Origin: Escherichia phage pro147 | DNA length: 32,675 bases | Sequence record: NC_028896.1 | Direction: 5' to 3' (one strand) | In this document: piece after piece, positions 19,197 through 29,222 of the stretch | Layout: each line of letters begins with the position of its first letter | How positions within the stretch are numbered: position 1 is the first letter of the stretch | Program-made: the position numbers and the translations under genes | Notes under the pieces: generated by a model | Database searches by the model: none | Seen by the model: the letters and a program-made list of their open reading frames with translations, nothing else | What the model was told of the DNA's origin: nothing

Positions 19197-19369
19197 TGTC
19201 AGGAGTCCTGAATAGTGATTAGAGGAGTCACATGTCGGCATCAGTTTCCCGACGATACGCATCCTCCGCCATCAGTCCCGGATGGCTTATCACTGACACA
19301 ACAGCACCTTAGCGAATCGCGGGGCGCGACTCAGTAGCCTTGCCGTGTATTCATCACGGCGAGGTATTC
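19197..19369. promoter_or_regulatory. Divergent late promoter region between O and P (expected Ogr-dependent promoters)
   Basis: 173-bp intergenic region between the divergently transcribed scaffold and terminase genes. Assigned by synteny with P2; no confident Ogr box could be picked out by eye. Confidence 0.45.
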
Positions 19370-21142
19370 ATGACCATCACCACAGACACCACTCTTTTAC
19401 ACGACCCGCGTCGTCAGGCGGCGCTGCTGTACTGGCAGGGGTTTTCCGTGCCGCAGATTGCCGCCATGTTGCAGATGAAACGCCCGACGGTGCAGAGCTG
19501 GAAACAGCGCGACGGCTGGGACAGCGTTGCCCCCATCAGCCGTGTCGAAATGAGTCTGGAAGCGCGGCTGACCCAGCTCATCATCAAACCGCAGAAAACC
19601 GGCGGTGACTTCAAGGAAATTGACCTGCTGGGACGTCAGATTGAACGACTGGCACGGGTCAACCGCTACAGTCAGACCGGCAACGAGGCAGACCTTAATC
19701 CGAACGTCGCTAACCGCAACAAAGGCGGGCGTCGCAAACCGAAAAAGAATTTTTTCAGTGACGAGGCCATCGAAAAGCTGGAGCAGATTTTCTTTGAGCA
19801 GTCTTTCGAATATCAGTTGCACTGGTATCGCGCCGGGCTTGAGCACCGCATCCGCGATATCCTGAAATCCCGCCAGATTGGCGCGACGTTTTATTTTTCC
19901 CGCGAGGCGCTGCTGCGCGCCCTGAAAACCGGTCATAACCAGATTTTTCTGTCGGCCAGTAAAACGCAGGCGTATGTGTTCCGCGAATACATCATCGCCT
20001 TTGCCCGGCTGGTTGACGTTGACCTGACCGGTGACCCGATTGTCCTGGGCAATAACGGCGCAAAACTGATTTTTCTCGGCACCAACTCCAACACCGCACA
20101 GAGCCATAACGGCGACCTGTACGTCGACGAGATTTTCTGGATCCCGAATTTTCAGGTACTGCGTAAGGTGGCATCAGGTATGGCCTCACAGAGTCACCTG
20201 CGCTCGACCTATTTCTCCACCCCGTCCACGCTGGCGCACGACGCCTACCCGTTCTGGTCGGGTGAACTGTTCAACCGGGGACGCGCCAGCGCCGCCGAAC
20301 GCGTGGAAATCGACGTCAGTCATAACGCCCTTGCCGGAGGTCTTCTCTGTGCGGACGGCCAGTGGCGGCAGATTGTCACCATTGAGGACGCCCTGAAAGG
20401 CGGCTGCACGCTGTTCGACATTGAGCAGCTCAAACGTGAAAACAGCGCCGACGATTTTAAAAACCTGTTCATGTGTGAATTTGTTGACGACAAGGCGTCG
20501 GTGTTCCCGTTCGAGGAGCTGCAACGTTGCATGGTCGACACGCTGGAAGAATGGGAAGACTATGCGCCGTTTGCCGCAAATCCGTTCGGCTCCCGCCCGG
20601 TATGGATTGGTTACGACCCGTCACACCGTGGCGACAGCGCCGGATGCGTGGTACTGGCACCGCCGGTGGTGGCCGGTGGCAAATTCAGAATACTTGAGCG
20701 TCACCAGTGGAAAGGCATGGACTTTGCCACCCAGGCGGAATCCATCCGCAAACTCACCGAAAAATATAACGTTGAATACATCGGGATTGATGCCACCGGC
20801 CTCGGTGTCGGCGTGTTCCAGCTCGTGCGCTCGTTCTATCCCGCCGCGCGCGATATCCGCTACACGCCGGAAATGAAAACCGCAATGGTGCTCAAGGCAA
20901 AAGACGTTATCCGCCGTGGCTGTCTGGAATATGACGTCAGCGCCACCGACATCACCAGCTCGTTTATGGCTATCCGCAAGACCATGACCAGCAGCGGACG
21001 CAGCGCCACCTATGAGGCCAGCCGCAGCGAGGAAGCCAGCCACGCCGATCTCGCCTGGGCGACTATGCACGCCCTGTTAAATGAGCCACTCACCGCCGGT
21101 ATCAGCACCCCGCTGACATCCACCATTCTGGAGTTTTACTGA
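19370..21142 (+). CDS. P: Terminase ATPase (large) subunit P, 590 aa
   Basis: Translation from the ATG at 19370 (preceded by GAGGT) gives 590 aa starting MTITTDTTLLHDP...; divergent from O as in P2. Confidence 0.92.
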   Translation: MTITTDTTLLHDPRRQAALLYWQGFSVPQIAAMLQMKRPTVQSWKQRDGWDSVAPISRVEMSLEARLTQLIIKPQKTGGDFKEIDLLGRQIERLARVNRYSQTGNEADLNPNVANRNKGGRRKPKKNFFSDEAIEKLEQIFFEQSFEYQLHWYRAGLEHRIRDILKSRQIGATFYFSREALLRALKTGHNQIFLSASKTQAYVFREYIIAFARLVDVDLTGDPIVLGNNGAKLIFLGTNSNTAQSHNGDLYVDEIFWIPNFQVLRKVASGMASQSHLRSTYFSTPSTLAHDAYPFWSGELFNRGRASAAERVEIDVSHNALAGGLLCADGQWRQIVTIEDALKGGCTLFDIEQLKRENSADDFKNLFMCEFVDDKASVFPFEELQRCMVDTLEEWEDYAPFAANPFGSRPVWIGYDPSHRGDSAGCVVLAPPVVAGGKFRILERHQWKGMDFATQAESIRKLTEKYNVEYIGIDATGLGVGVFQLVRSFYPAARDIRYTPEMKTAMVLKAKDVIRRGCLEYDVSATDITSSFMAIRKTMTSSGRSATYEASRSEEASHADLAWATMHALLNEPLTAGISTPLTSTILEFY

Positions 21143-22161
21143 TGAGTAAGAAAAAAGGGAAAACACCGCAGCCAGCGGTGAAAACAATGACTGCCAGCGC
21201 CCCGAAAATGGAGGCATTCACCTTTGGTGAGCCGGTGCCGGTACTCGACCGCCGTGATATTCTGGATTACGTCGAGTGCATCAGTAACGGCAGATGGTAT
21301 GAGCCACCGGTCAGCTTTACCGGTCTGGCAAAAAGCCTGCGTGCTGCCGTGCATCACAGCTCACCGATTTACGTTAAACGCAATATTCTGGCTTCAACGT
21401 TTATCCCGCACCCGTGGCTGTCCCAGCAGGATTTCAGCCGCTTTGTGCTGGATTTTCTGGTGTTCGGTAATGCGTTTCTGGAAAAGCGTTACAGCACCAC
21501 CGGTAAGGTCATCAGACTGGAAACCTCACCGGCAAAATATACCCGCCGTGGCGTGGAGGAGGATGTTTACTGGTGGGTGCCGTCCTTCAACGAGCCGACA
21601 GCCTTCGCGCCCGGCTCCGTGTTTCACCTGCTGGAGCCGGATATCAATCAGGAGCTGTACGGCCTGCCGGAATATCTCAGCGCCCTTAACTCTGCCTGGC
21701 TGAATGAGTCGGCCACGCTGTTCCGCCGCAAGTATTACGAAAACGGCGCTCATGCCGGATACATCATGTATGTCACCGATGCCGTGCAGGATCGCAACGA
21801 TATCGAAATGCTTCGCGAAAACATGGTTAAGTCGAAAGGCCGCAACAACTTTAAAAACCTGTTTCTCTATGCCCCACAGGGGAAAGCCGACGGCATTAAA
21901 ATTATCCCCCTCAGTGAAGTGGCGACGAAGGACGATTTTTTTAATATCAAAAAAGTCAGCGCCGCAGATCTCCTGGACGCACACCGCATCCCCTTTCAGT
22001 TGATGGGCGGTAAGCCGGAGAATGTCGGGTCACTAGGAGATATTGAAAAAGTGGCAAAGGTCTTTGTCCGCAATGAACTCATTCCATTACAGGAGAGAAT
22101 AAAGTCAATAAATGAATGGTTAGATATGGAAGTAATAAAATTCCTTGATTATAACTTATAA
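21142..22161 (+). CDS. Q: Portal protein Q, 339 aa (3' end AT-rich and apparently remodelled)
   Basis: 339-aa ORF overlapping the P stop (TGATG); position matches P2 gpQ. The last ~25 codons (22081-22161) are abruptly AT-rich, continuous with the downstream cargo island. Confidence 0.88.
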   Translation: MSKKKGKTPQPAVKTMTASAPKMEAFTFGEPVPVLDRRDILDYVECISNGRWYEPPVSFTGLAKSLRAAVHHSSPIYVKRNILASTFIPHPWLSQQDFSRFVLDFLVFGNAFLEKRYSTTGKVIRLETSPAKYTRRGVEEDVYWWVPSFNEPTAFAPGSVFHLLEPDINQELYGLPEYLSALNSAWLNESATLFRRKYYENGAHAGYIMYVTDAVQDRNDIEMLRENMVKSKGRNNFKNLFLYAPQGKADGIKIIPLSEVATKDDFFNIKKVSAADLLDAHRIPFQLMGGKPENVGSLGDIEKVAKVFVRNELIPLQERIKSINEWLDMEVIKFLDYNL

Positions 22162-22173
22162 GTAAATATATAA

Positions 22174-22200
22174 AGTTGGCGGAATGCAATCCCGCCAACT
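22174..22200. terminator. Hairpin between convergent Q and the retron-operon effector gene
   Basis: Perfect 9-bp stem agttggcgg (22174-22182) / ccgccaact (22192-22200) with 9-nt loop, filling the 42-bp gap between two convergent stop codons. Confidence 0.6.
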
Positions 22201-22203
22201 TAA

Positions 22204-22911
22204 CTATATATACTTCCTTTTTACTCTACTTAATTCTATCACTGATGAGGAGTGACAAAATGACAAATTAATAGTATCGATATAATCCAAAATTTGACTC
22301 TCAACCTCAATAAAAATATTTTTGGGCCCATTACTAATCGATATACCGATTTCATCCAAAACAGCCATCATTTTTCTCTGATGAGTTTTATATTTATAGT
22401 CTTTATTTTCCTCTGTAATATGTGCATTGGCTTCCTCAATAACACATTTGATTCTAGATATTATTTCTAGATAATCTCTCGAAACAGATATATCACCGCC
22501 TTGCGCTTCAGGGAACATAACCCTATACCATCTAAAAAAATTAACTTTCTCTGGATAGATGCTACTTCTTTTAGTTAACTCAGCACTTGCAAATTCTCTA
22601 AACATCGTCAGATGACTAGTGTAATTACTATTATTATTATTTTTAACTCCAGCGTTATATGTCATCAAAGCAATCATAACACCAAAAACGGTAACAAAAG
22701 TTGTTATAAGCCATCCAAACGCCTGAAAATACATTACTATACCAGATGTTTTTTCCGCAAAAAATTTTAAGCACTGGCTATCGAAGCATATATCACGCTC
22801 ATATAGCTTTTCATTCTGAATAGTTTCAAAAAGAGAAATTAGCGAAAAAATCAAAAAAAGAGCTGACGACACACCGACAATATATTTGAGAAGTCTAATA
22901 TTTGCATTCAT
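22204..22911 (-). CDS. Putative retron effector: 235-aa protein with two N-terminal transmembrane helices
   Basis: AT-rich ORF overlapping the 3' end of the upstream reverse-transcriptase gene by 4 nt. Hydrophobic segments YIVGVSSALFLIFSLISLF and VMYFQAFGWLITTFVTVFGVMIALMTY, followed by a ~140-aa soluble C-terminal domain. Confidence 0.7.
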   Translation of the reverse strand: MNANIRLLKYIVGVSSALFLIFSLISLFETIQNEKLYERDICFDSQCLKFFAEKTSGIVMYFQAFGWLITTFVTVFGVMIALMTYNAGVKNNNNSNYTSHLTMFREFASAELTKRSSIYPEKVNFFRWYRVMFPEAQGGDISVSRDYLEIISRIKCVIEEANAHITEENKDYKYKTHQRKMMAVLDEIGISISNGPKNIFIEVESQILDYIDTINLSFCHSSSVIELSRVKRKYI

Positions 22912-24182
22912 AATGGTTTTAAAGATGCCAATCTAGATTTAAAACACTCCAGTTTTTCTTTAAATGATTCAGAGCGAGTAAGAATAATCATCTTATATCT
23001 CGTCAAATCATATTTTCTTTTATACCAATGTTTATTTTGATTACCTTTCGAATACGACAACTCTAAACTTTTTATAGCTGCATCAATCACAGCAACATCT
23101 CTTTTAGATGGCATCGGTTTTATTGCCTGCAACTGTTTCTTGAATGATTCATATTTTTCATGCGCAACACGGCCAAGCTTATTCACTCTCCCCATACATC
23201 TATTGAATTCTTTTCTGTATGCAACACTTGTTTTTGTGTTATTTTTTGCCGCCAGTAATTTCAAATTATGTATAGATGCCCTGATTCTTTTGACTTCATC
23301 GGATGGTAGTCGAGGTGAGTCATAGTCAACTCTTAAACCATGTACTTTTATAGGTTCAGATGAACAGTGAAATATTTTAGTTTTGCGCTTATTTATCGGC
23401 AAGTCATGCTCAGAAAGCATCCTCTCTATATGGCTTTGCATTTGAGAAAAATCATAATTACTTATTTTAGATGACACGGTAATATCATCTACCAAACGCG
23501 TATAAACAAGTCCTTTCCTCTGCGCACGTCTTACCACATCCCCTTCAACAGCGAATAAACACAAAGTTGCTATATAGCTTGATGTTAAGGCCCCCTGTAC
23601 GACAAAATCATCCTTAGTACATATATCCACCAAGTATTCAAGAGCCTCATCCTTAATATGCAATATCTCCTCAAACACGCTCCTAACCAGATCTCTATGG
23701 ATATTATCGAAAAAATTACTTATATCCACCTTGAGAACTGTTTTTGCTCCACAATGAGCCTTTGCACATGAAACATAGTCACGTTTGACATTAGAATTTA
23801 AAACATCATTTTTACTGGGAACTGAACCAAACAAAAATGAAGGAAAAACAACCAATTCCTTAAAGATACGTTTATTAATTCTACTCTGTAATAATCTCAT
23901 TTTAGGATGCAGGGAGTAGACAATCCGTTTGCTTCCGTCAATTTTGGGAATTTCTTTTAGAGTATATTTCTCATCTAATGGTAATTCTGCAATAGCTTTA
24001 AGCTCTTCAACAGAAATCGATAAAGCCTTTGACAACTTTTCAAGTGTTGTGATAGGAGCATTGGATTTGCTGTATGGTTTAAATTTATCCATAAACATAC
24101 CATTCAAATTCAAAGTTACGTACGGTCTTCCCATACTCAAGGGTGGAACAGCAGAGATGCTTACATCAACAATTGTCAGCAA
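22908..24182 (-). CDS. Retron-type reverse transcriptase (start uncertain: TTG 24182, ATG 24134 or ATG 24098)
   Basis: Translation shows the RT motifs ...CAKAHCGAKTVLKVDISNFFDNI..., ...QGALTSSYIATLCL..., ...YTRLVDDITV... (YxDD box) and a VHGL motif resembling the retron VTG signature. AT-rich; the TTG at 24180-24182 is preceded by AGAGG. Confidence 0.8.
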   Translation of the reverse strand: MLTIVDVSISAVPPLSMGRPYVTLNLNGMFMDKFKPYSKSNAPITTLEKLSKALSISVEELKAIAELPLDEKYTLKEIPKIDGSKRIVYSLHPKMRLLQSRINKRIFKELVVFPSFLFGSVPSKNDVLNSNVKRDYVSCAKAHCGAKTVLKVDISNFFDNIHRDLVRSVFEEILHIKDEALEYLVDICTKDDFVVQGALTSSYIATLCLFAVEGDVVRRAQRKGLVYTRLVDDITVSSKISNYDFSQMQSHIERMLSEHDLPINKRKTKIFHCSSEPIKVHGLRVDYDSPRLPSDEVKRIRASIHNLKLLAAKNNTKTSVAYRKEFNRCMGRVNKLGRVAHEKYESFKKQLQAIKPMPSKRDVAVIDAAIKSLELSYSKGNQNKHWYKRKYDLTRYKMIILTRSESFKEKLECFKSRLASLKPL

Positions 24183-24423
24183 CAGCCTCTGCTATCTTTC
24201 GACCGTACGTAATGTCGTCGGCTACGGCACCATCGTAGTTGACGACGGTGGGGCCTCGCTGATAGGTCCATAGTGGACGCTTTTTTGTAAAAGCAAAAAC
24301 TGACAATTTAATGTTGTTGACTGCCGCATACCAAGCGAATCGCTGGTGCGCTAAGAATAATGCAACAAAAAAATAAGAATTTCAACCGGGTAACTGCAAG
24401 CCAGCGACATCGTTTAGCGCGCA
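24183..24423 (-). ncRNA. Candidate retron non-coding RNA (msr/msd) in the structured leader upstream of the RT gene
   Basis: GC-rich non-coding stretch between cos and the RT with a nested hairpin gtcgtc-gg-ctacg-gcaccat-cgtag-tt-gacgac (24214-24246) and a 12-nt inverted repeat ttacgtacggtc (24116-24127) / gaccgtacgtaa (24201-24212). Exact msr/msd boundaries could not be determined. Confidence 0.3.
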
Positions 24424-24442
24424 GTGCTTTCCCCGCCTCGCC
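24424..24442 (-). other. cos: Phage cos site: 19-nt cohesive-end sequence GGCGAGGCGGGGAAAGCAC (minus-strand sense)
   Basis: Plus strand 24424-24442 reads gtgctttccccgcctcgcc, the reverse complement of the P2 cohesive end as recalled; followed by ...ctgcgcgct as at the P2 left end. Adjacent GC hairpin ccgccc (24442-24447) / gggcgg (24456-24461) plus tttt. Confidence 0.75.
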
Positions 24443-24648
24443 CGCCCGCTTCATGGGGCGGTTTTAATGCAGTAGCATGACCACTCAACTAGCGCGCCAG
24501 TCCTGATGTCGCCAGGCAGTTATTGTTCTCTGACTTGCGTGCGCTTCGATGCAGAGTAATGCACTTCCTGAATTGCTCGCATTCGCATCGTTATCATGAT
24601 AGAAAACAGGTAGTTATTTGTGCGCAACTTAAGAAGAAATCACTAATT

Positions 24649-26193
24649 ATGAAAAAGATTTATGAATTAACTACTGGTAGAGCGCTTAAGTATTTTCTGC
24701 AGCATGATTCATACACTACTCTGGAGCTACCCAGTTATGTCGATTTTTCTTCCTTGCTTGAAGAAATCAACTCCGCGATAGATGAAGGTAAAATCAACTT
24801 CCAACCTGACTCCAAGTCATTGATGGGGAAGAATATAAATTACGAGGTTTTAGTCAGCAAAGATGGCTTATATAGCTGGCGACGAATAACACTAATTAAT
24901 CCTCTGTACTACGTGTATTTTTGTAAACTTATTACATCCCCTTCCAACTGGAAGGCTATAAAGAATAAATTTAGAGAGTTTGAGTCTAATGATCTTTTTT
25001 TATGCTCAAGTACCCCAGTGAGCAAAAAGAACACCTCAAACGTAGCTGCATCTGTTTTAAACTGGTGGGAAGATTTTGAACAAAAAAGTCTTTCATTGGC
25101 TCTTGAGTATGAGTTCATGTTCAGCACAGATATTTCAAACTTCTACCCTTCTATTTACACTCATAGCTTTGAATGGGTATTCATCTCAAAAGAAGAGGCC
25201 AAAAAGAAAGAAAATAACAATAACCCAGGACGATTGATTGACACTCATATCCAGATGATGATGAGTAATCAGACAAACGGAATACCATTGGGTAGTACGT
25301 TGATGGATACATTTGCCGAATTAATTTTAGGCGAAATTGATTTACAGCTAAGAAAAAAAACTGAAGAGCAAAAAATAACGGATTACAAAGTAGTTCGCTA
25401 CAGAGATGATTATCGAATATTTTCAAGCAGTAAAGATGATTTGGACAAAATCTCAAAGTGTTTGGTTGAGGTCTTAGGTGAGTTTGGGCTTGATTTAAAC
25501 TCAAGAAAAACAGAACTACATGACGACATCATTCTTCACTCTCTTAAATCAGCAAAAAAAGAATATATTATAGAAAGGTCGTTCAACTCCCTACAGAAAA
25601 TGTTGTATGCAATATATTTATTTTCTTTAAAACATCAAAACTCCAAAATTACAGTTAGATATTTAAATGATTTCTTGCGAAAATTATTTAGGAAGAAAAA
25701 GATCACAAATAGTGGGCATCAACTAGATGCAATGCTTGGAATTATTTCAAGCATCATGGCTAAAAACCCAACCACCTACCCAGTGGGAATGGCTATTTTC
25801 GCAAAACTCTTGACCTTCCTTTATGACGACGATGAACTCAAATTTGGCAAGTTACAACAACTTCATTGTAAACTAGGTAAACAACCAAATACTGAAATGT
25901 TAGATATTTGGTTTCAACGAGTTCAAGGGAAGATACACACACAATGGGAAGGCGATTACAAAACAGCCCTATGTCAACGCATAAATGATGAACTCAAGGG
26001 AAAAAAAACATTTACCATTGATGGCCTGTGGGATGTAGAGTGGATTCCGGGCTCAGCCAAAAGTAAAAACAAACAGAAAATACTATCAATTTTGAAAAAA
26101 ACAAAAATTGTGGATTTAGATGCATTCGAAGAAATGGATAATGATATTACACCAGAAGAAGTGAACTTATTCGACAAGGAACACAGCGCTTAA
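24649..26193 (+). CDS. Abi-P2-like (Abi/UG-class) reverse transcriptase, single-gene anti-phage system, 514 aa (alternative start ATG 24559)
   Basis: AT-rich ORF in the tin/old cargo position. RT motifs ...FSTDISNFYPSIYTH..., ...NGIPLGSTLMDTFAEL..., ...VVRYRDDYRIFS..., followed by a long C-terminal extension with no recognisable effector domain. No adjacent partner gene. Confidence 0.75.
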   Translation: MKKIYELTTGRALKYFLQHDSYTTLELPSYVDFSSLLEEINSAIDEGKINFQPDSKSLMGKNINYEVLVSKDGLYSWRRITLINPLYYVYFCKLITSPSNWKAIKNKFREFESNDLFLCSSTPVSKKNTSNVAASVLNWWEDFEQKSLSLALEYEFMFSTDISNFYPSIYTHSFEWVFISKEEAKKKENNNNPGRLIDTHIQMMMSNQTNGIPLGSTLMDTFAELILGEIDLQLRKKTEEQKITDYKVVRYRDDYRIFSSSKDDLDKISKCLVEVLGEFGLDLNSRKTELHDDIILHSLKSAKKEYIIERSFNSLQKMLYAIYLFSLKHQNSKITVRYLNDFLRKLFRKKKITNSGHQLDAMLGIISSIMAKNPTTYPVGMAIFAKLLTFLYDDDELKFGKLQQLHCKLGKQPNTEMLDIWFQRVQGKIHTQWEGDYKTALCQRINDELKGKKTFTIDGLWDVEWIPGSAKSKNKQKILSILKKTKIVDLDAFEEMDNDITPEEVNLFDKEHSA

Positions 26194-26680: not shown

Positions 26681-28957
26681 TTATATGTTTGTTGAGAATC
26701 CCGGCCACTCATCAGCGACCGGATACGTGAATTTTTCCCCGTCATAATTTACGGTCGCGCCACGCGCCAGCGCCTCAAGCTCCCATCGCTGTGGCCTGAT
26801 ACCGTTCTGAGCAAGGTCAACGCGGATACGGGTAATTTGCATTCGTTCCGACCGGGTCAGTCTGGCCGATGGCGCTATTTCATGCGGTTTTAACGGGCTT
26901 CCGTTTCTTTGCTGACGGTTTGGTCTTCTCAGACCGTGTTTTAATGCACCTCTGAGCGCCCTCACGACCTCCTGGTCATTCCATTCGATAACACCGTCAT
27001 CTACCAGATTAAGCACTGCTGCGGCGTGCTCAGAAGGTGTGGGAGCCGGTAACGAAGTATCACCACCGGTGAGCTTTCCACAGTTATTGACAGGACTCCG
27101 AGGCGCGGCGATGCCGCTTTTTAAAGTCAAAGGCTCAACGACCAGCACTTTCGGAACAATGCGCCAGTCCGTCGTTCTGGTGATATGAATATGACGCGCG
27201 CCGAGATGCGGCGCGTAAATGCCGACCACTCTCTCGACTTCTTCCTCGTACTCGTTAACTTCATCCGACGGACTACGGGCGACCCTGACAGTCTGACAAT
27301 CGCGCGGGACATTTGCCCCACCCTGCGCGCTGATATACAGCGCAAAATCGCCACTGTCTGCGGCAGCGCGTGCAGCCTCGACGCGTTCGTCAAACTCATC
27401 AGCAATGCTGACGCCGCGAGGTAATTTGCGTAGTTCACGGTAAGCCCCCATTGTCGGCAGGCCAACCGTTTTAAATTGCGGAATGCGCCACGTTGACGCC
27501 CATGCGGTAACAGCCGCGGCAGTGTCTTTCAGCGGCCTGCCGGTATCGTTATCGAGCTGACCATCCAGTGCATAGCCGTCGATGTTTTTTGAAATGTATT
27601 TCGCGATATACCCCGCAGCACCGCCCCGGTTAAGGTGTTTTGCCTGAAAACGGTTTCGCGCGGCTCCTCTTTCGTCGCCATCCTCTTTGAGCGCATAGCG
27701 ACGCATGATTTCGATAATCTGGTTACGCTGGCGCGGATTACAAAAAAGCATCATATGCCAGTGCGGCGTTCCGTCGTGGTGTGGCTCGACGACACGCAAA
27801 CCGTAGACCTGTAAATCATTATCCTTGAATGCCGTGCGCATCAGGCTCCAGATACGGCAGAGATAACGCTGCGCATCCTTTGGATTAAATGCCTCATCGT
27901 TCCAGCCGTGATTTAGCTGGACGGTTTTACTTTCGCCTTTTCTGACCTGACGTGTCGGGTGATACTTTGACGGCGCGGTCAGCGTGATAAACATCCCCAC
28001 ATCACCCTCTGCTGCGGCGTAACGCTCAATACCGGCAATGGTGTTCATCAGCTCCATCCGGCGAATTTCAGGATTAGAAATACTGCCCATCACCTTACTG
28101 ATAAGGTCGATGCGCTCGCCGGTTTCCCTGTTTTCAAGGTCACACGATTTAAGAAATTCCAGATTTGCCTGGCGGCGCGCACGCACATCACGAATGGCAT
28201 GTTTACTGGCATAAGGAGAACGGTCTTTATTGACCTCCCCGACAGCTATCAGTAACGCCTCATGCCAGCGCATACGTTGGCCTTTAAGCTGATGAGTCCA
28301 CCACTCATCGTTAAACAGGCGGGCAATGGCAGAATATGCCTGCCTCGTGGTCATCTGTCCTTTACGGTATTTTTTCCAGTAGAGCGGGGAAATATTGAAA
28401 GCACGTGCAGCGCCAGCAACATGACCATAGAGGTGAGCCTGCGCCTCATCCGTAAACAGCGATTCTTTTTCGCCATGTGCATCAACCCAGGCATCGCAGA
28501 GTTCCTCATACATCATGAAAAGCTGCGATGAGATACGGGCAGCAAACTTTTTCAGCTCCTTGTCATTCATTCCCGGCAGGCGCGCATAGTGGTCACGCTC
28601 TGCCAGAAACAGCAACGACGCGTCGGTGTTCATTTCATGGCGCTGATTCACACGCTCAATGCGCGGCCATAAACGACGCTGAAAAGTGGATGTGAGGAAA
28701 TAAAACCCGTGCACCGGGCTTTTATTGCGCCGGATGTAGTCATAACGTGAAGTAAACAGCGAGCGCAAAAAGTAAGGCAGGCGGTTAATCGTGGATAAAA
28801 CACCTTGCACCTGACGCATCTCGTCACGTGTAAGGGGTCTTTCGCGCCCGACAGCCTCGCGTGGCGCGTTCCATGCATAAGCACCGGTAAACGTCTTACC
28901 GGTGCCTGCGGCAAATGCTGACGGAGGGACAAAACGCCCGGAGGCTTTAACGGCCAT
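26681..28957 (-). CDS. A: Replication initiation protein A (rolling-circle nickase), about 758 aa from ATG 28957
   Basis: Translation from MAVKASGRFVPPSAFAAGTGK... matches the recalled P2 gpA N-terminus. The track ORF starts 14 codons upstream at a TTG (28999). The last few codons lie at the boundary with the cargo island. Confidence 0.9.
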   Translation of the reverse strand: MAVKASGRFVPPSAFAAGTGKTFTGAYAWNAPREAVGRERPLTRDEMRQVQGVLSTINRLPYFLRSLFTSRYDYIRRNKSPVHGFYFLTSTFQRRLWPRIERVNQRHEMNTDASLLFLAERDHYARLPGMNDKELKKFAARISSQLFMMYEELCDAWVDAHGEKESLFTDEAQAHLYGHVAGAARAFNISPLYWKKYRKGQMTTRQAYSAIARLFNDEWWTHQLKGQRMRWHEALLIAVGEVNKDRSPYASKHAIRDVRARRQANLEFLKSCDLENRETGERIDLISKVMGSISNPEIRRMELMNTIAGIERYAAAEGDVGMFITLTAPSKYHPTRQVRKGESKTVQLNHGWNDEAFNPKDAQRYLCRIWSLMRTAFKDNDLQVYGLRVVEPHHDGTPHWHMMLFCNPRQRNQIIEIMRRYALKEDGDERGAARNRFQAKHLNRGGAAGYIAKYISKNIDGYALDGQLDNDTGRPLKDTAAAVTAWASTWRIPQFKTVGLPTMGAYRELRKLPRGVSIADEFDERVEAARAAADSGDFALYISAQGGANVPRDCQTVRVARSPSDEVNEYEEEVERVVGIYAPHLGARHIHITRTTDWRIVPKVLVVEPLTLKSGIAAPRSPVNNCGKLTGGDTSLPAPTPSEHAAAVLNLVDDGVIEWNDQEVVRALRGALKHGLRRPNRQQRNGSPLKPHEIAPSARLTRSERMQITRIRVDLAQNGIRPQRWELEALARGATVNYDGEKFTYPVADEWPGFSTNI

Positions 28958-29222
28958 ATGAGCCAAAAGCCTCTGAACAACGCCTGCTGAGTTGCTCAAC
29001 CTGCGCGTTTAAATCAGCAAAAGACTTTGCGCTTCCGGTCAGAATATCGTGATGCATCAGGCCGGAAACGAGCTGGCTTAATTTCGGGTAATAACCAACC
29101 ACCGCCAGCCATTCCTGACCGGCGTTTTTACCGCTTTCCGCTCTCTTTTTCTCGTGGAGAATAAACTGAAAGCTGTCACTGGTAACGACATAACGTTTGC
29201 CAATTTCAATACGAATGCTCAT
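28947..29222 (-). CDS. Early-operon hypothetical protein (P2 orf83 position), 91 aa
   Basis: ATG-initiated ORF immediately upstream of A, overlapping its start by 11 nt; syntenic with P2 orf83. Confidence 0.7.
   Translation of the reverse strand: MSIRIEIGKRYVVTSDSFQFILHEKKRAESGKNAGQEWLAVVGYYPKLSQLVSGLMHHDILTGSAKSFADLNAQVEQLSRRCSEAFGSYGR

What the first reader, a model, noticed from the sequence alone, without database searches (positions are those of the whole stretch)
24116..24423. GC-rich structured leader between cos and the RT gene: candidate retron ncRNA with unusual geometry
The non-coding stretch upstream of the RT is conspicuously GC-rich relative to the AT-rich operon. It contains a nested hairpin (gtcgtc/gacgac around ctacg/cgtag, 24214-24246) and a 12-nt inverted repeat ttacgtacggtc (24116-24127) / gaccgtacgtaa (24201-24212) that straddles possible RT start codons. 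The inverted-repeat arms are only 73 nt apart, too close to be a canonical a1/a2 pair flanking a full msr-msd. The real ncRNA boundaries are therefore unknown, and part of this stretch may instead be cos-flanking terminase recognition sequence.
Basis: seen in the sequence. Interest (0 to 1): 0.55.

Follow-up and report, generated by a model that had tools for sequence, protein, structure and literature searches.

The report
Known retron Ec48 non-coding RNA
This stretch is the promoter and non-coding RNA gene of the already described anti-phage retron Ec48 (Retron-Eco6), sitting in a P2-like prophage next to cos.

Summary
Both reported repeats exist as described. The region is not new. It is the msr-msd non-coding RNA locus of retron Ec48 (Retron-Eco6, type IV: ncRNA, RT, 2TM effector).

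- **Identity.** The published Eco6 ncRNA maps to 24371-24186 (-) with 184 of 185 letters identical. The effector is the exact sequence named Retron Ec48 transmembrane protein.
- **Nested hairpin (24214-24246).** This is the msd stem-loop. The published RT-DNA starts at 24205 on the + strand.
- **12-nt inverted repeat.** It is not an a1/a2 pair around msr-msd. It is helix A of a 3' module (helices A and B, hairpin D) lying between msd and the RT start.
- **Conservation of the module.** It is found in 39 type IV loci from many genera. Pairing is 96% against 69% in shuffles, and 22 of 23 pairs show changes on both sides.
- **Long-range helix.** A second helix (C) joins 24329-24300 to the loop of helix B.
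- **cos.** P2-like phages without the RT share only 24416-24486, so nothing in 24116-24415 is cos-associated.
- **Residual interest.** The published a2 overlaps a positionally conserved promoter and shows no covariation. The priming geometry and the branching G of type IV retrons therefore remain open.

The parts
24357..24385 (-). Predicted sigma-70 promoter of the retron: -35 TTGAAA (24385-24380), 17-nt spacer, -10 CATTAT (24362-24357). The predicted transcription start is about 24351 +/- 2.
   Evidence: This is the only promoter-like site in 24050-24700. In 14 of 19 type IV loci the best -35/-10 match ends 26-29 nt before the conserved UGCNGCA motif. Similarity among the four closest relatives begins exactly at AGC 24352-24350. 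The transcription start is inferred, not measured.
24111..24352 (-). Conserved non-coding RNA element (msr-msd plus a 3' module) of retron Ec48, about 242 nt.
   Evidence: Its limits come from conservation in alignment A5. The published Eco6 ncRNA maps to 24371-24186 with 184 of 185 letters identical. Alignment of 30 type IV loci supports the element.
24330..24347 (-). 5' hairpin hp0 (ACCAGCG AUU CGCUUGGU), directly after the predicted start.
   Evidence: It is seen in the fold. It is present with changed stem sequences upstream of the UGCNGCA motif in other loci. These comparisons were read by eye.
24300..24329 (-). 5' strand of long-range helix C: C0 AUGC 24329-24326, C1 GUCAACA 24321-24315, C2 AAUUGUCAG 24308-24300.
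   Evidence: Repeat I9 is 9 of 9 complementary. The duplex energy is about -22 to -23 kcal/mol. In the own-versus-other-locus duplex test the median rank was 2.5 of 29, and the own partner was best in 10 of 30 loci. Compensatory changes occur in close relatives.
24266..24294 (-). Two msr-type hairpins: hp1 24294-24279 and hp2 24278-24266.
   Evidence: RNAalifold recovers hp2 with 5 pairs, all showing changes on both sides. hp1 is visible in all rows of A2. Their assignment to msr follows from their position 5' of msd and is inferred.
   Evidence: Repeat I4. It lies inside the published RT-DNA. The census table gives a 7-nt editing-donor site, 130;136. Placing that site in this loop is my inference from the matching 7-nt length; counted from the printed ncRNA start it falls about 9 nt short.
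24205..24252 (+). msDNA-Ec48 sequence (48 nt, + strand sense): GTACGTAATGTCGTCGGCTACGGCACCATCGTAGTTGACGACGGTGGG.
   Evidence: The 5' end comes from the published RT-DNA string, which maps to the + strand from 24205. The 48-nt length is from the literature name. The 3' end is reported 3 nt shorter by sequencing (PMC8989520).
24201..24212 (-). Helix A, 5' arm (UUACGUACGGUC). Its outer 8 nt are the first template bases. The inner GGUC is the conserved core.
24116..24127 (-). Helix A, 3' arm (GACCGUACGUAA). Its first base, G 24127, is nearly invariant in the family.
   Evidence: In model alignment A4 all 10 helix-A pairs show changes on both sides and 96.5% of cells are paired. Near-invariant G is reported. 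A G-C to U-A compensatory change occurs in E. coli SC477 and Kosakonia.
24146..24196 (-). Helix B (5' arm 24196-24184, 3' arm 24161-24146). Its 29-nt loop carries the 3' strand of helix C (24179-24157).
   Evidence: All 10 helix-B pairs show changes on both sides and 95.4% of cells are paired. The loop pairs with the upstream region.
24130..24143 (-). Hairpin D (CCC UUGAGUAU GGG), the most sequence-conserved element (invariant C, A, U, G).
22908..24098 (-). Retron Ec48 reverse transcriptase (start ATG 24098 or 24092).
   Evidence: PADLOC RT_IV, E = 1.4e-176. Pfam RVT_1. RefSeq WP_000357145.1 starts at 24092.
22204..22911 (-). Retron Ec48 two-transmembrane effector.
   Evidence: PADLOC 2TM_IV, E = 4.1e-85. 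NCBIfam retron_Ec48_2TM scores 226.7 bits against a cut-off of 65. The exact sequence is named TM48_ECOLX.
24424..24442 (.). P2-type 19-nt cohesive end (cos).
   Evidence: It aligns to the cosR feature 33575-33593 of phage P2, AF063097.1.

Best explanation
**What it is.** The region is the promoter and non-coding RNA gene of the known type IV retron Ec48 (Retron-Eco6). The retron cassette (about 22101-24415) replaces the short spacer between the P2 portal gene Q and cos.

**Layout of the RNA, read on the minus strand:**
- a promoter (24385-24357) and a predicted start near 24351;
- a 5' hairpin;
- the 5' strand of long-range helix C;
- two msr hairpins;
The loop of helix B pairs back to the 5' region, forming helix C.

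**How the system works (published).**
- The RT copies the msd hairpin into the 48-nt msDNA.
- With the RT and the 2TM effector, this forms an abortive-infection system.
- It is triggered when phage proteins inhibit RecBCD (Millman et al., bioRxiv 10.1101/2020.06.21.156273).

**My inference, about 40% likely.**
- The duplex formed by the inner core of helix A plus helix B abuts the first template base.
- It may therefore act as the priming platform in type IV retrons, in place of a terminal a1/a2.
- Hairpin D would then be the RT recognition element.

The position of the branching G is not settled by my data.
For: **Identity**
- PADLOC RT_IV, E = 1.4e-176, and 2TM_IV, E = 4.1e-85.
- NCBIfam retron_Ec48_2TM scores 226.7 bits.
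- The effector is the exact sequence named TM48_ECOLX.
- The published Eco6 ncRNA is 184 of 185 identical to 24371-24186 (-). The published RT-DNA maps to the + strand from 24205.
- The family alignment shows VHG invariant and CAxxH invariant or nearly so, in place of the retron VTG and NAxxH motifs. PMC6868368 reports substitutions at those two positions for RT-Eco6.

**Structure**
- RNAalifold recovers helices A, B, D and hp2, with changes on both sides in 26 of 28 pairs.
- Covariance model R1 hits the window once, at 24113-24215 (-), 80.2 bits, E = 2e-18. It also hits 39 type IV loci and none of L045-L080.
- 96.1% of cells are paired against 69.0% in shuffles. The covariation score is 0.806 against 0.276 (0 of 500 shuffles reach it) and at most 0.147 for slid partners.
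- Helix C is supported by the own-versus-other duplex test.

**Promoter and 5' end:**

**The segment next to the template start pairs downstream, not upstream**
- Downstream partner: own -19.3 against others -12.0 kcal/mol, best in 13 of 19 loci.
- Upstream partner: -6.7 against -7.2 kcal/mol.

**Not cos-related:**
Against: - No transcript, 5' end or branch point was measured here.
- The original description (Mao et al. 1997) could not be read. I therefore do not know which G was mapped experimentally.
- The census annotation appears to place a2 and the priming G at 24371-24351. This is my reading of its ncRNA boundaries. It conflicts with my predicted start site.
- For the priming-platform idea, no conserved G sits opposite the base next to the first template base. 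G 24123 is present only in this lineage (7 of 30 loci). The near-invariant G 24127 would predict a DNA 5' end 3-4 nt upstream of the published one.
- Helix B and the full helix C leave no linker between them, so they probably cannot all form at once. This is an inference.
Confidence: 0.9

Rival explanations
1. The 12-nt repeat is a canonical a1/a2 pair. G 24200, just after the 5' arm, would be the branching G. The template would be the sequence just 5' of the 3' arm (hairpin D, then helix B). The msDNA would then be made from 24128-24175 and not from the nested hairpin.
For: The local geometry looks canonical. There is a perfect 12-bp stem. A G follows the 5' arm in most loci, and a near-invariant G sits at the start of the 3' arm.
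Against: The published RT-DNA maps to 24205 onward on the + strand, which is the nested hairpin. The listed 7-nt editing-donor site matches the length of that hairpin's loop; its placement there is my inference. Hairpin D and the helix B loop are strongly conserved in sequence. By analogy with other retrons, I read that conservation as typical of protein-recognition elements, not templates.
Confidence: 0.05
2. The hairpins belong to the P2 packaging signal, that is, cos-flanking terminase recognition sequence.
For: The stretch lies next to the 19-nt cohesive end at 24424-24442.
Against: The 99 P2-like phage records share only about 24416-24486 on this side. None matches 24116-24415. The same structures occur upstream of type IV RTs in non-phage contexts in Pseudomonas, Marinobacter and other genera. 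They also occur in a P4-like element in E. coli SC477.
Confidence: 0.01
3. The 3' module (helices A and B, hairpin D) has no role in priming. Instead it would be a clamp or insulator with one or more of these roles: fixing the 3' boundary of the ncRNA, stabilising or processing the transcript, or tuning translation of the RT. Priming would come from a G in the 5' domain, for example G 24300 after helix C2 or the published G 24351.
For: Helix C encloses hp1, hp2 and msd exactly as a canonical a1/a2 would, and its 5' strand ends in G. The module lies 17-23 nt upstream of the RT start codon. In the sister type VI retrons, RNA structure represses translation of the effector (bioRxiv 10.1101/2025.10.22.683967).
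Against: - The 3' strand of helix C starts 25 nt from the first template base, so that G would not be next to the template.
- The ribosome-binding region lies outside helix A.
- The published RT-DNA string runs through the whole 5' domain to 24364, with no stop at any G there.
- The published a2 overlaps the conserved -10 element and shows no covariation.
Confidence: 0.25

Closest known systems
Retron-Eco6 (Ec48), type IV retron (Mao et al. 1997; Millman et al. 2020; Mestre et al. 2020)
   Same: It is the same element. The gene order is ncRNA, RT, 2TM effector. The effector protein is identical. The ncRNA is 184 of 185 identical to the published sequence. The msd hairpin is the same.
   Different: There is no difference in the element itself. 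My comparative map differs from the published ncRNA boundaries (24371-24186) in two ways.
- It starts about 20 nt later, at the predicted transcription start.
- It extends 75 nt further 3', to include the rest of helix B, the 3' strand of helix C, hairpin D and the 3' arm of helix A.
Canonical retron ncRNA, e.g. Retron-Eco1 (Ec86)
   Same: Both have a structured RNA upstream of the RT, msr hairpins followed by an msd hairpin, and a long-range inverted repeat enclosing them (helix C). In both, the first template base is a C followed by a G.
   Different: In Eco1 the terminal a1/a2 stem directly abuts the branching G and the first template base. Here the enclosing helix C is 25 nt away from the template start. 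The helix that abuts the template start is formed with sequence downstream of msd. The RT carries CAxxH and VHG in place of NAxxH and VTG.
Retron-Sen1 (Se72), type V, same RT clade 3
   Same: It is a sister group, and it also departs from the canonical priming picture. No apparent priming G and no observed 2'-5' linkage are reported, and initiation is described as self-priming (PMC6868368).
   Different: It has a cold-shock-type accessory protein. No sequence relation between the ncRNAs was tested here. In my recollection of the database literature, msDNA-Ec48 is described as branched; I could not verify this.
Type VI retron hybrid RNA (Retron-Vpa2)
   Same: It is a clade 3 relative. Its RNA forms several arms, and a downstream segment folds back onto the msr-msd arm through inverted repeats.
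   Different: The type VI RNA contains the effector ORF, and msDNA synthesis is induced only on infection. Eco6 makes msDNA constitutively.

Membership tests
Retron (general) | Reverse transcriptase of the retron lineage | tested here: met
   PADLOC RT_IV, E = 1.4e-176, with all the next-best matches being other retron RT types. Pfam RVT_1, E = 5.2e-31.
Retron (general) | Structured ncRNA (msr-msd) next to the RT | tested here: met
   It is identical to the published Eco6 ncRNA. The structure covaries across about 40 loci.
Retron (general) | Terminal inverted repeat a1/a2 abutting a branching G and the first template base | tested here: inconclusive
   - Helix C encloses msr-msd but is 25 nt from the template start.
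- Helices A and B abut the template start but lie 3' of msd.
- The published a2 has no comparative support.
- The branching G was not identified.
Retron (general) | Production of msDNA with a 2'-5' RNA-DNA branch | not testable with these tools
   Known only from the literature for Eco6: RT-DNA seen on gels and by sequencing (PMC8989520; census supplement).
Type IV retron / Retron-Eco6 (Ec48) | Two-transmembrane effector directly downstream of, or overlapping, the RT | tested here: met
   ORF 22204-22911 overlaps the RT stop by 4 nt. PADLOC 2TM_IV, E = 4.1e-85. NCBIfam equivalog retron_Ec48_2TM scores 226.7 bits against a cut-off of 65. The exact sequence is named TM48_ECOLX.
Type IV retron / Retron-Eco6 (Ec48) | RT motif variants reported for RT-Eco6 (Asn substituted in NAxxH; VTG changed to VHG) | tested here: met
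   Columns C111, H115, H253 and G254 are invariant, and A112 and V252 nearly so, in the family alignment. The report is in PMC6868368.
Type IV retron / Retron-Eco6 (Ec48) | Same ncRNA and msd sequence as published | tested here: met
   184 of 185 letters identical for the ncRNA and 157 of 159 for the RT-DNA string. The differences are consistent with errors in the PDF text.
P2 cos / terminase recognition region | Sequence conserved next to cos in P2-like phages irrespective of cargo | tested here: not met
   Only 24416-24486 is shared with P2-like phages. Nothing in 24116-24415 is shared.
Rfam RNA families | Match to a curated covariance model | tested here: not met
   There were no hits at gathering thresholds in the whole window. 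In 23800-24800 there were only chance-level hits, E from 0.37 to 8.8.

The most novel reading that the evidence does not exclude
Type IV retrons may not prime from a terminal a1/a2 at all.
- The duplex that positions the first template base would be a fold-back structure lying 3' of msd: helix B plus the GGYC/GRCC core of helix A, with hairpin D as the RT handle.
- The branching or priming nucleotide would then sit downstream of the template, around 24127-24123. That is a permuted topology, akin to the self-priming reported for the sister retron Se72.
- The published Eco6 a2 and priming G (24371-24351) would be promoter sequence.
- The published ncRNA would cut a required structure in half.
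Probability: 0.3. Interest if true: 0.6.

Novelty: already known. Interest (0 to 1): 0.3.

Why it matters
As a discovery, little: Ec48 is one of the best-known defence retrons, and its presence in the Q-cos hotspot of P2-like prophages fits what is known for Ec86 and Ec67.

The useful by-product is a comparative map of the type IV ncRNA.
- It gives conserved boundaries (about 24352-24111).
- It gives three covarying helices and a pseudoknot-like long-range helix.
- It does not match the ncRNA boundaries used for engineering Eco6.

If the 3' module is needed for priming, this may bear on the low or absent activity of type IV retrons in the census. Eco6 gave 0.2x Eco1 editing. The Acinetobacter type IV retron gave no RT-DNA, although its listed ncRNA appears to include the module. 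It would also show where the priming nucleotide should be looked for.

Tried and rejected
- **Rfam.** Searches found nothing, either on the whole window at gathering thresholds or on 1 kb around the finding at E <= 10.
- **Original papers.** Mao et al. 1997 (PMC179752) and Pilousova & Rychlik 2011 (PMC11114809) are not held. Full-text searches for the repeat sequences and for msDNA-Ec48 gave no sequence-level description.
- **An upstream partner (a2).** I looked for one for the segment next to the template start (24204-24184).
  - It showed no specificity over other loci's segments anywhere upstream.
  - It showed none for the published-type a2 region either.
- **Invariant AUG in hairpin D (24134).** I considered it as the true RT start, because some gene callers give a 408-aa product. 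I rejected this for three reasons:
  - it is out of frame with the RT in Pseudomonas loci (read);
  - the helix A 3' arm covaries at every position;
  - homologues align from 24098/24092.
- **G 24123 as a family-wide branching G.** It is present in only 7 of 30 loci.
- **Census entries for type V and other type IV retrons.** They gave no RT-DNA data that could calibrate the geometry.
Full report
**Observation.** Both repeats exist as described.
- The 12-nt inverted repeat has arms at 24116-24127 and 24201-24212. It is perfectly complementary, with 73 nt between the arms.
- The nested hairpin spans 24214-24246. Its arms are 13 nt long and 85% complementary, with a 7-nt loop.
- By my arithmetic, a perfect 12-mer repeat at such spacing is expected about 0.002 times in a stretch this long.
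- The stretch is G+C-richer (0.45-0.57) than the flanking minus-strand genes (0.27-0.42).
- Its minus strand folds better than shuffles (z = -2.83).

**Context.** The window is an E. coli P2-like prophage.

| Feature | Coordinates | Evidence |
|---|---|---|
| Terminase | 19340-21142 (+) | |
| Portal gene Q | 21142-22161 (+) | |
| 235-aa protein, PADLOC 2TM_IV (E = 4.1e-85) | 22204-22911 (-) | |
| RT, PADLOC RT_IV (E = 1.4e-176) | 22908-24098 (-) | |
| The finding | 24116-24423 | as given |
| P2 cohesive end (cos) | 24424-24442 | |
| Second RT, AbiP2 (E = 5.1e-160) | 24649-26193 (+) | |
| Replication gene A | 26681-28999 (-) | |

Homology to phage P2 stops at about 22100 inside Q. It resumes at 24416, 8 nt before cos. 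So about 2.3 kb carrying the retron replaces the Q-cos spacer. The same site has been described for retrons Ec86 and Ec67 (PMC6868368).

**Identity.**
- NCBIfam calls the effector retron_Ec48_2TM, at 226.7 bits against a cut-off of 65.
- The exact protein sequence is named "Retron Ec48 transmembrane protein, TM48_ECOLX".
- The supplement of the retron census (PMC10849725, entry 488, Retron-Eco6/Ec48) prints an ncRNA and a sequenced RT-DNA.
- That ncRNA maps to 24371-24186 on the minus strand, with 184 of 185 letters identical.
- That RT-DNA maps to the + strand from 24205.
- The family alignment carries VHG and CAxxH in place of the usual retron VTG and NAxxH motifs. Substitutions at those positions are reported for RT-Eco6.

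The finding is therefore the ncRNA locus of a known retron. RefSeq annotates nothing in this interval. Rfam has no matching model.

**What the two repeats are.** The nested hairpin lies inside the RT-DNA, so it is the msd stem-loop. The 48-nt msDNA corresponds to 24205-24252 on the + strand. The census lists a 7-nt editing-donor site, the same length as that loop.

The 12-nt repeat does not flank msr-msd.
- Its 5' arm begins one base after the msd hairpin.
- The outer 8 nt of that arm are the first template bases.
- Its 3' arm lies 17 nt before the first ATG of the RT.

**Comparison with relatives.** I fetched 43 loci encoding type IV-like RTs from many genera, including Pseudomonas, Marinobacter, Aeromonas, Kosakonia and Xenorhabdus.
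- Nearly all carry an inverted repeat of 9-12 nt with 69-82 nt between the arms, ending 10-28 nt before the RT start. The repeat sequences differ between lineages.
- Inside it lies a second hairpin with a loop of about 30 nt.
- RNAalifold on 30 sequences recovers helix A (10 pairs), helix B (10 pairs), hairpin D (3 pairs) and an msr hairpin. Changes on both sides occur in 26 of 28 pairs.

A covariance model of this 3' module gave these results.
- It hits the window once, at 24113-24215 (-), with 80.2 bits and E = 2e-18.
- It also hits 39 type IV loci, including ten not used to build it.
- It hits none of the 36 more distant RT loci, L045-L080.
- On the resulting alignment 96.1% of cells are paired, against 69.0% in shuffles.
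- 22 of 23 pairs show changes on both sides.
- The covariation score is 0.806, against 0.276 in shuffles (0 of 500 reach it) and at most 0.147 with slid partners.
- The alignment was fitted to the model, which favours the structure. The independent MAFFT/RNAalifold result points the same way.

Helix A is thus a real, conserved RNA helix and a family trait.

**A further long-range helix.**
- The loop of helix B (24179-24157) is complementary to 24329-24300 in three segments of about 4, 7 and 9 bp. The duplex energy is about -22 to -23 kcal/mol.
- In a test needing no alignment, each locus's upstream region pairs far better with its own loop than with loops from other loci. The median rank was 2.5 of 29. 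The own loop was best in 10 of 30 loci, and the same three-part pattern recurs.
- Close relatives show compensatory changes.
- This helix C encloses the msr hairpins and msd, as a canonical a1/a2 would.
- No linker is left between its last segment and the 3' arm of helix B. I infer that the full helix C and helix B cannot all form at once. This suggests alternative conformers.

**Boundaries.**
- The only sigma-70-like site in the region is TTGAAA, 17 nt, CATTAT at 24385-24357 on the minus strand.
- Such a site alone is within chance expectation.
- However, in 14 of 19 loci the best promoter match ends 26-29 nt before the conserved UGCNGCA motif (sequences).
- Among the four closest relatives, similarity starts abruptly at AGC 24352-24350 and ends near 24111.
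- I therefore place the native RNA at about 24351 to about 24111.

This conflicts with the a2 I infer from the published ncRNA boundaries (24371-24353), which would then be promoter spacer and -10 element.
- That a2 shows no specific complementarity to the segment next to the template start. Own pairing averages -6.7 kcal/mol against -7.2 for other loci's segments.
- The strand downstream does show it: -19.3 against -12.0 kcal/mol, best in 13 of 19 loci.

**Mechanism.**

*Shown or published:*
- the identity of the parts;
- the msd;
- msDNA production (PMC8989520);
- defence by abortive infection, triggered by RecBCD inhibitors.

*Inferred:*
- The helix that abuts the first template base (C 24205, followed by G 24204) is made with sequence 3' of msd.
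- The 3' module may therefore be the priming platform, with hairpin D as the RT handle.

*Open:* the branching G. Four candidates remain.

| Candidate G | For | Against |
|---|---|---|
| 24127 | Near-invariant; sits at the A/B/D junction opposite the conserved G 24200 | Predicts a DNA 5' end 3-4 nt upstream of the published one |
| 24123 | Pairs with the first template base | Present in only 7 of 30 loci |
| 24300 | Follows helix C2 | 25 nt from the template start |
| 24351 | Apparent priming G in the published ncRNA | Coincides with the predicted transcription start |

The published RT-DNA string runs through the whole 5' domain to 24364. That argues weakly against a branch there. The sister retron Se72 is reported to lack an apparent priming G and to self-prime, so an unusual geometry in this clade would not be unprecedented.

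**Verdict.** The residual interest lies in the family-wide structure map and its mismatch with the published ncRNA boundaries.

Noticed in passing
24649-26193 (+): A second, unrelated defence reverse transcriptase lies on the other side of cos. It matches AbiP2 (PADLOC E = 5.1e-160). The stretch from the cos side into its 5' end (24457-24660) is 99.5% identical to the P2-EC58 record. Two RT-based systems therefore flank the cohesive end in one prophage.
   Followed up: partly
L083 (E. coli SC477, NZ_LR778152.1 249348-254498): Three complete E. coli genomes carry an 82%-identical variant of the same ncRNA with its RT and Ec48-family effector. In the one I examined (SC477), it sits next to an integrase, an ogr/Delta-like gene and a DUF927 protein. 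That context suggests a P4-like satellite and not a P2 prophage. Its helix A and helix C2 carry compensatory changes.
   Followed up: partly
24132-24134 (-), in hairpin D: The invariant A-U-G of hairpin D is an AUG in frame with the RT in this window, and some gene callers start the RT there (408 aa, P0001). It is out of frame in Pseudomonas loci. It is therefore probably conserved for RNA reasons and is not a start codon.
   Followed up: partly
24222-24223 (-), in the 3' half of the msd stem: The dinucleotide AG in GUAG (CCGUAGCC) is invariant in all 30 aligned type IV ncRNAs, although it lies inside the reverse-transcribed hairpin. Such conservation is not typical of retron msd regions and is unexplained. 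The alignment in this part is less secure.
   Followed up: no
24343-24353 and 24490-24500; 24415-24422 and 24490-24497: Two repeats flank cos. One is an 11-nt inverted repeat (CTGGTGCGCTA / TAGCGCGCCAG, 91% complementary). The other is an 8-nt direct repeat (TAGCGCGC). One copy of the inverted repeat coincides with the predicted 5' end of the ncRNA. They could be remnants of the recombination that brought in the cassette.
   Followed up: no
24442-24461 (+): A G+C-rich terminator-like hairpin with a T tract (CCGCCCGCTTCATGGGGCGG TTTT) starts inside the cohesive-end sequence. It is part of the segment shared with P2-like phages.
   Followed up: no
L030, L033, L035-L037, L040, L042: The most divergent type IV-like loci (Pseudoalteromonas, Colwelliaceae, Acinetobacter) match the 3' module model weakly or not at all. 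They still show inverted repeats at similar positions. The Acinetobacter relative tested in the census made no detectable RT-DNA.
   Followed up: no
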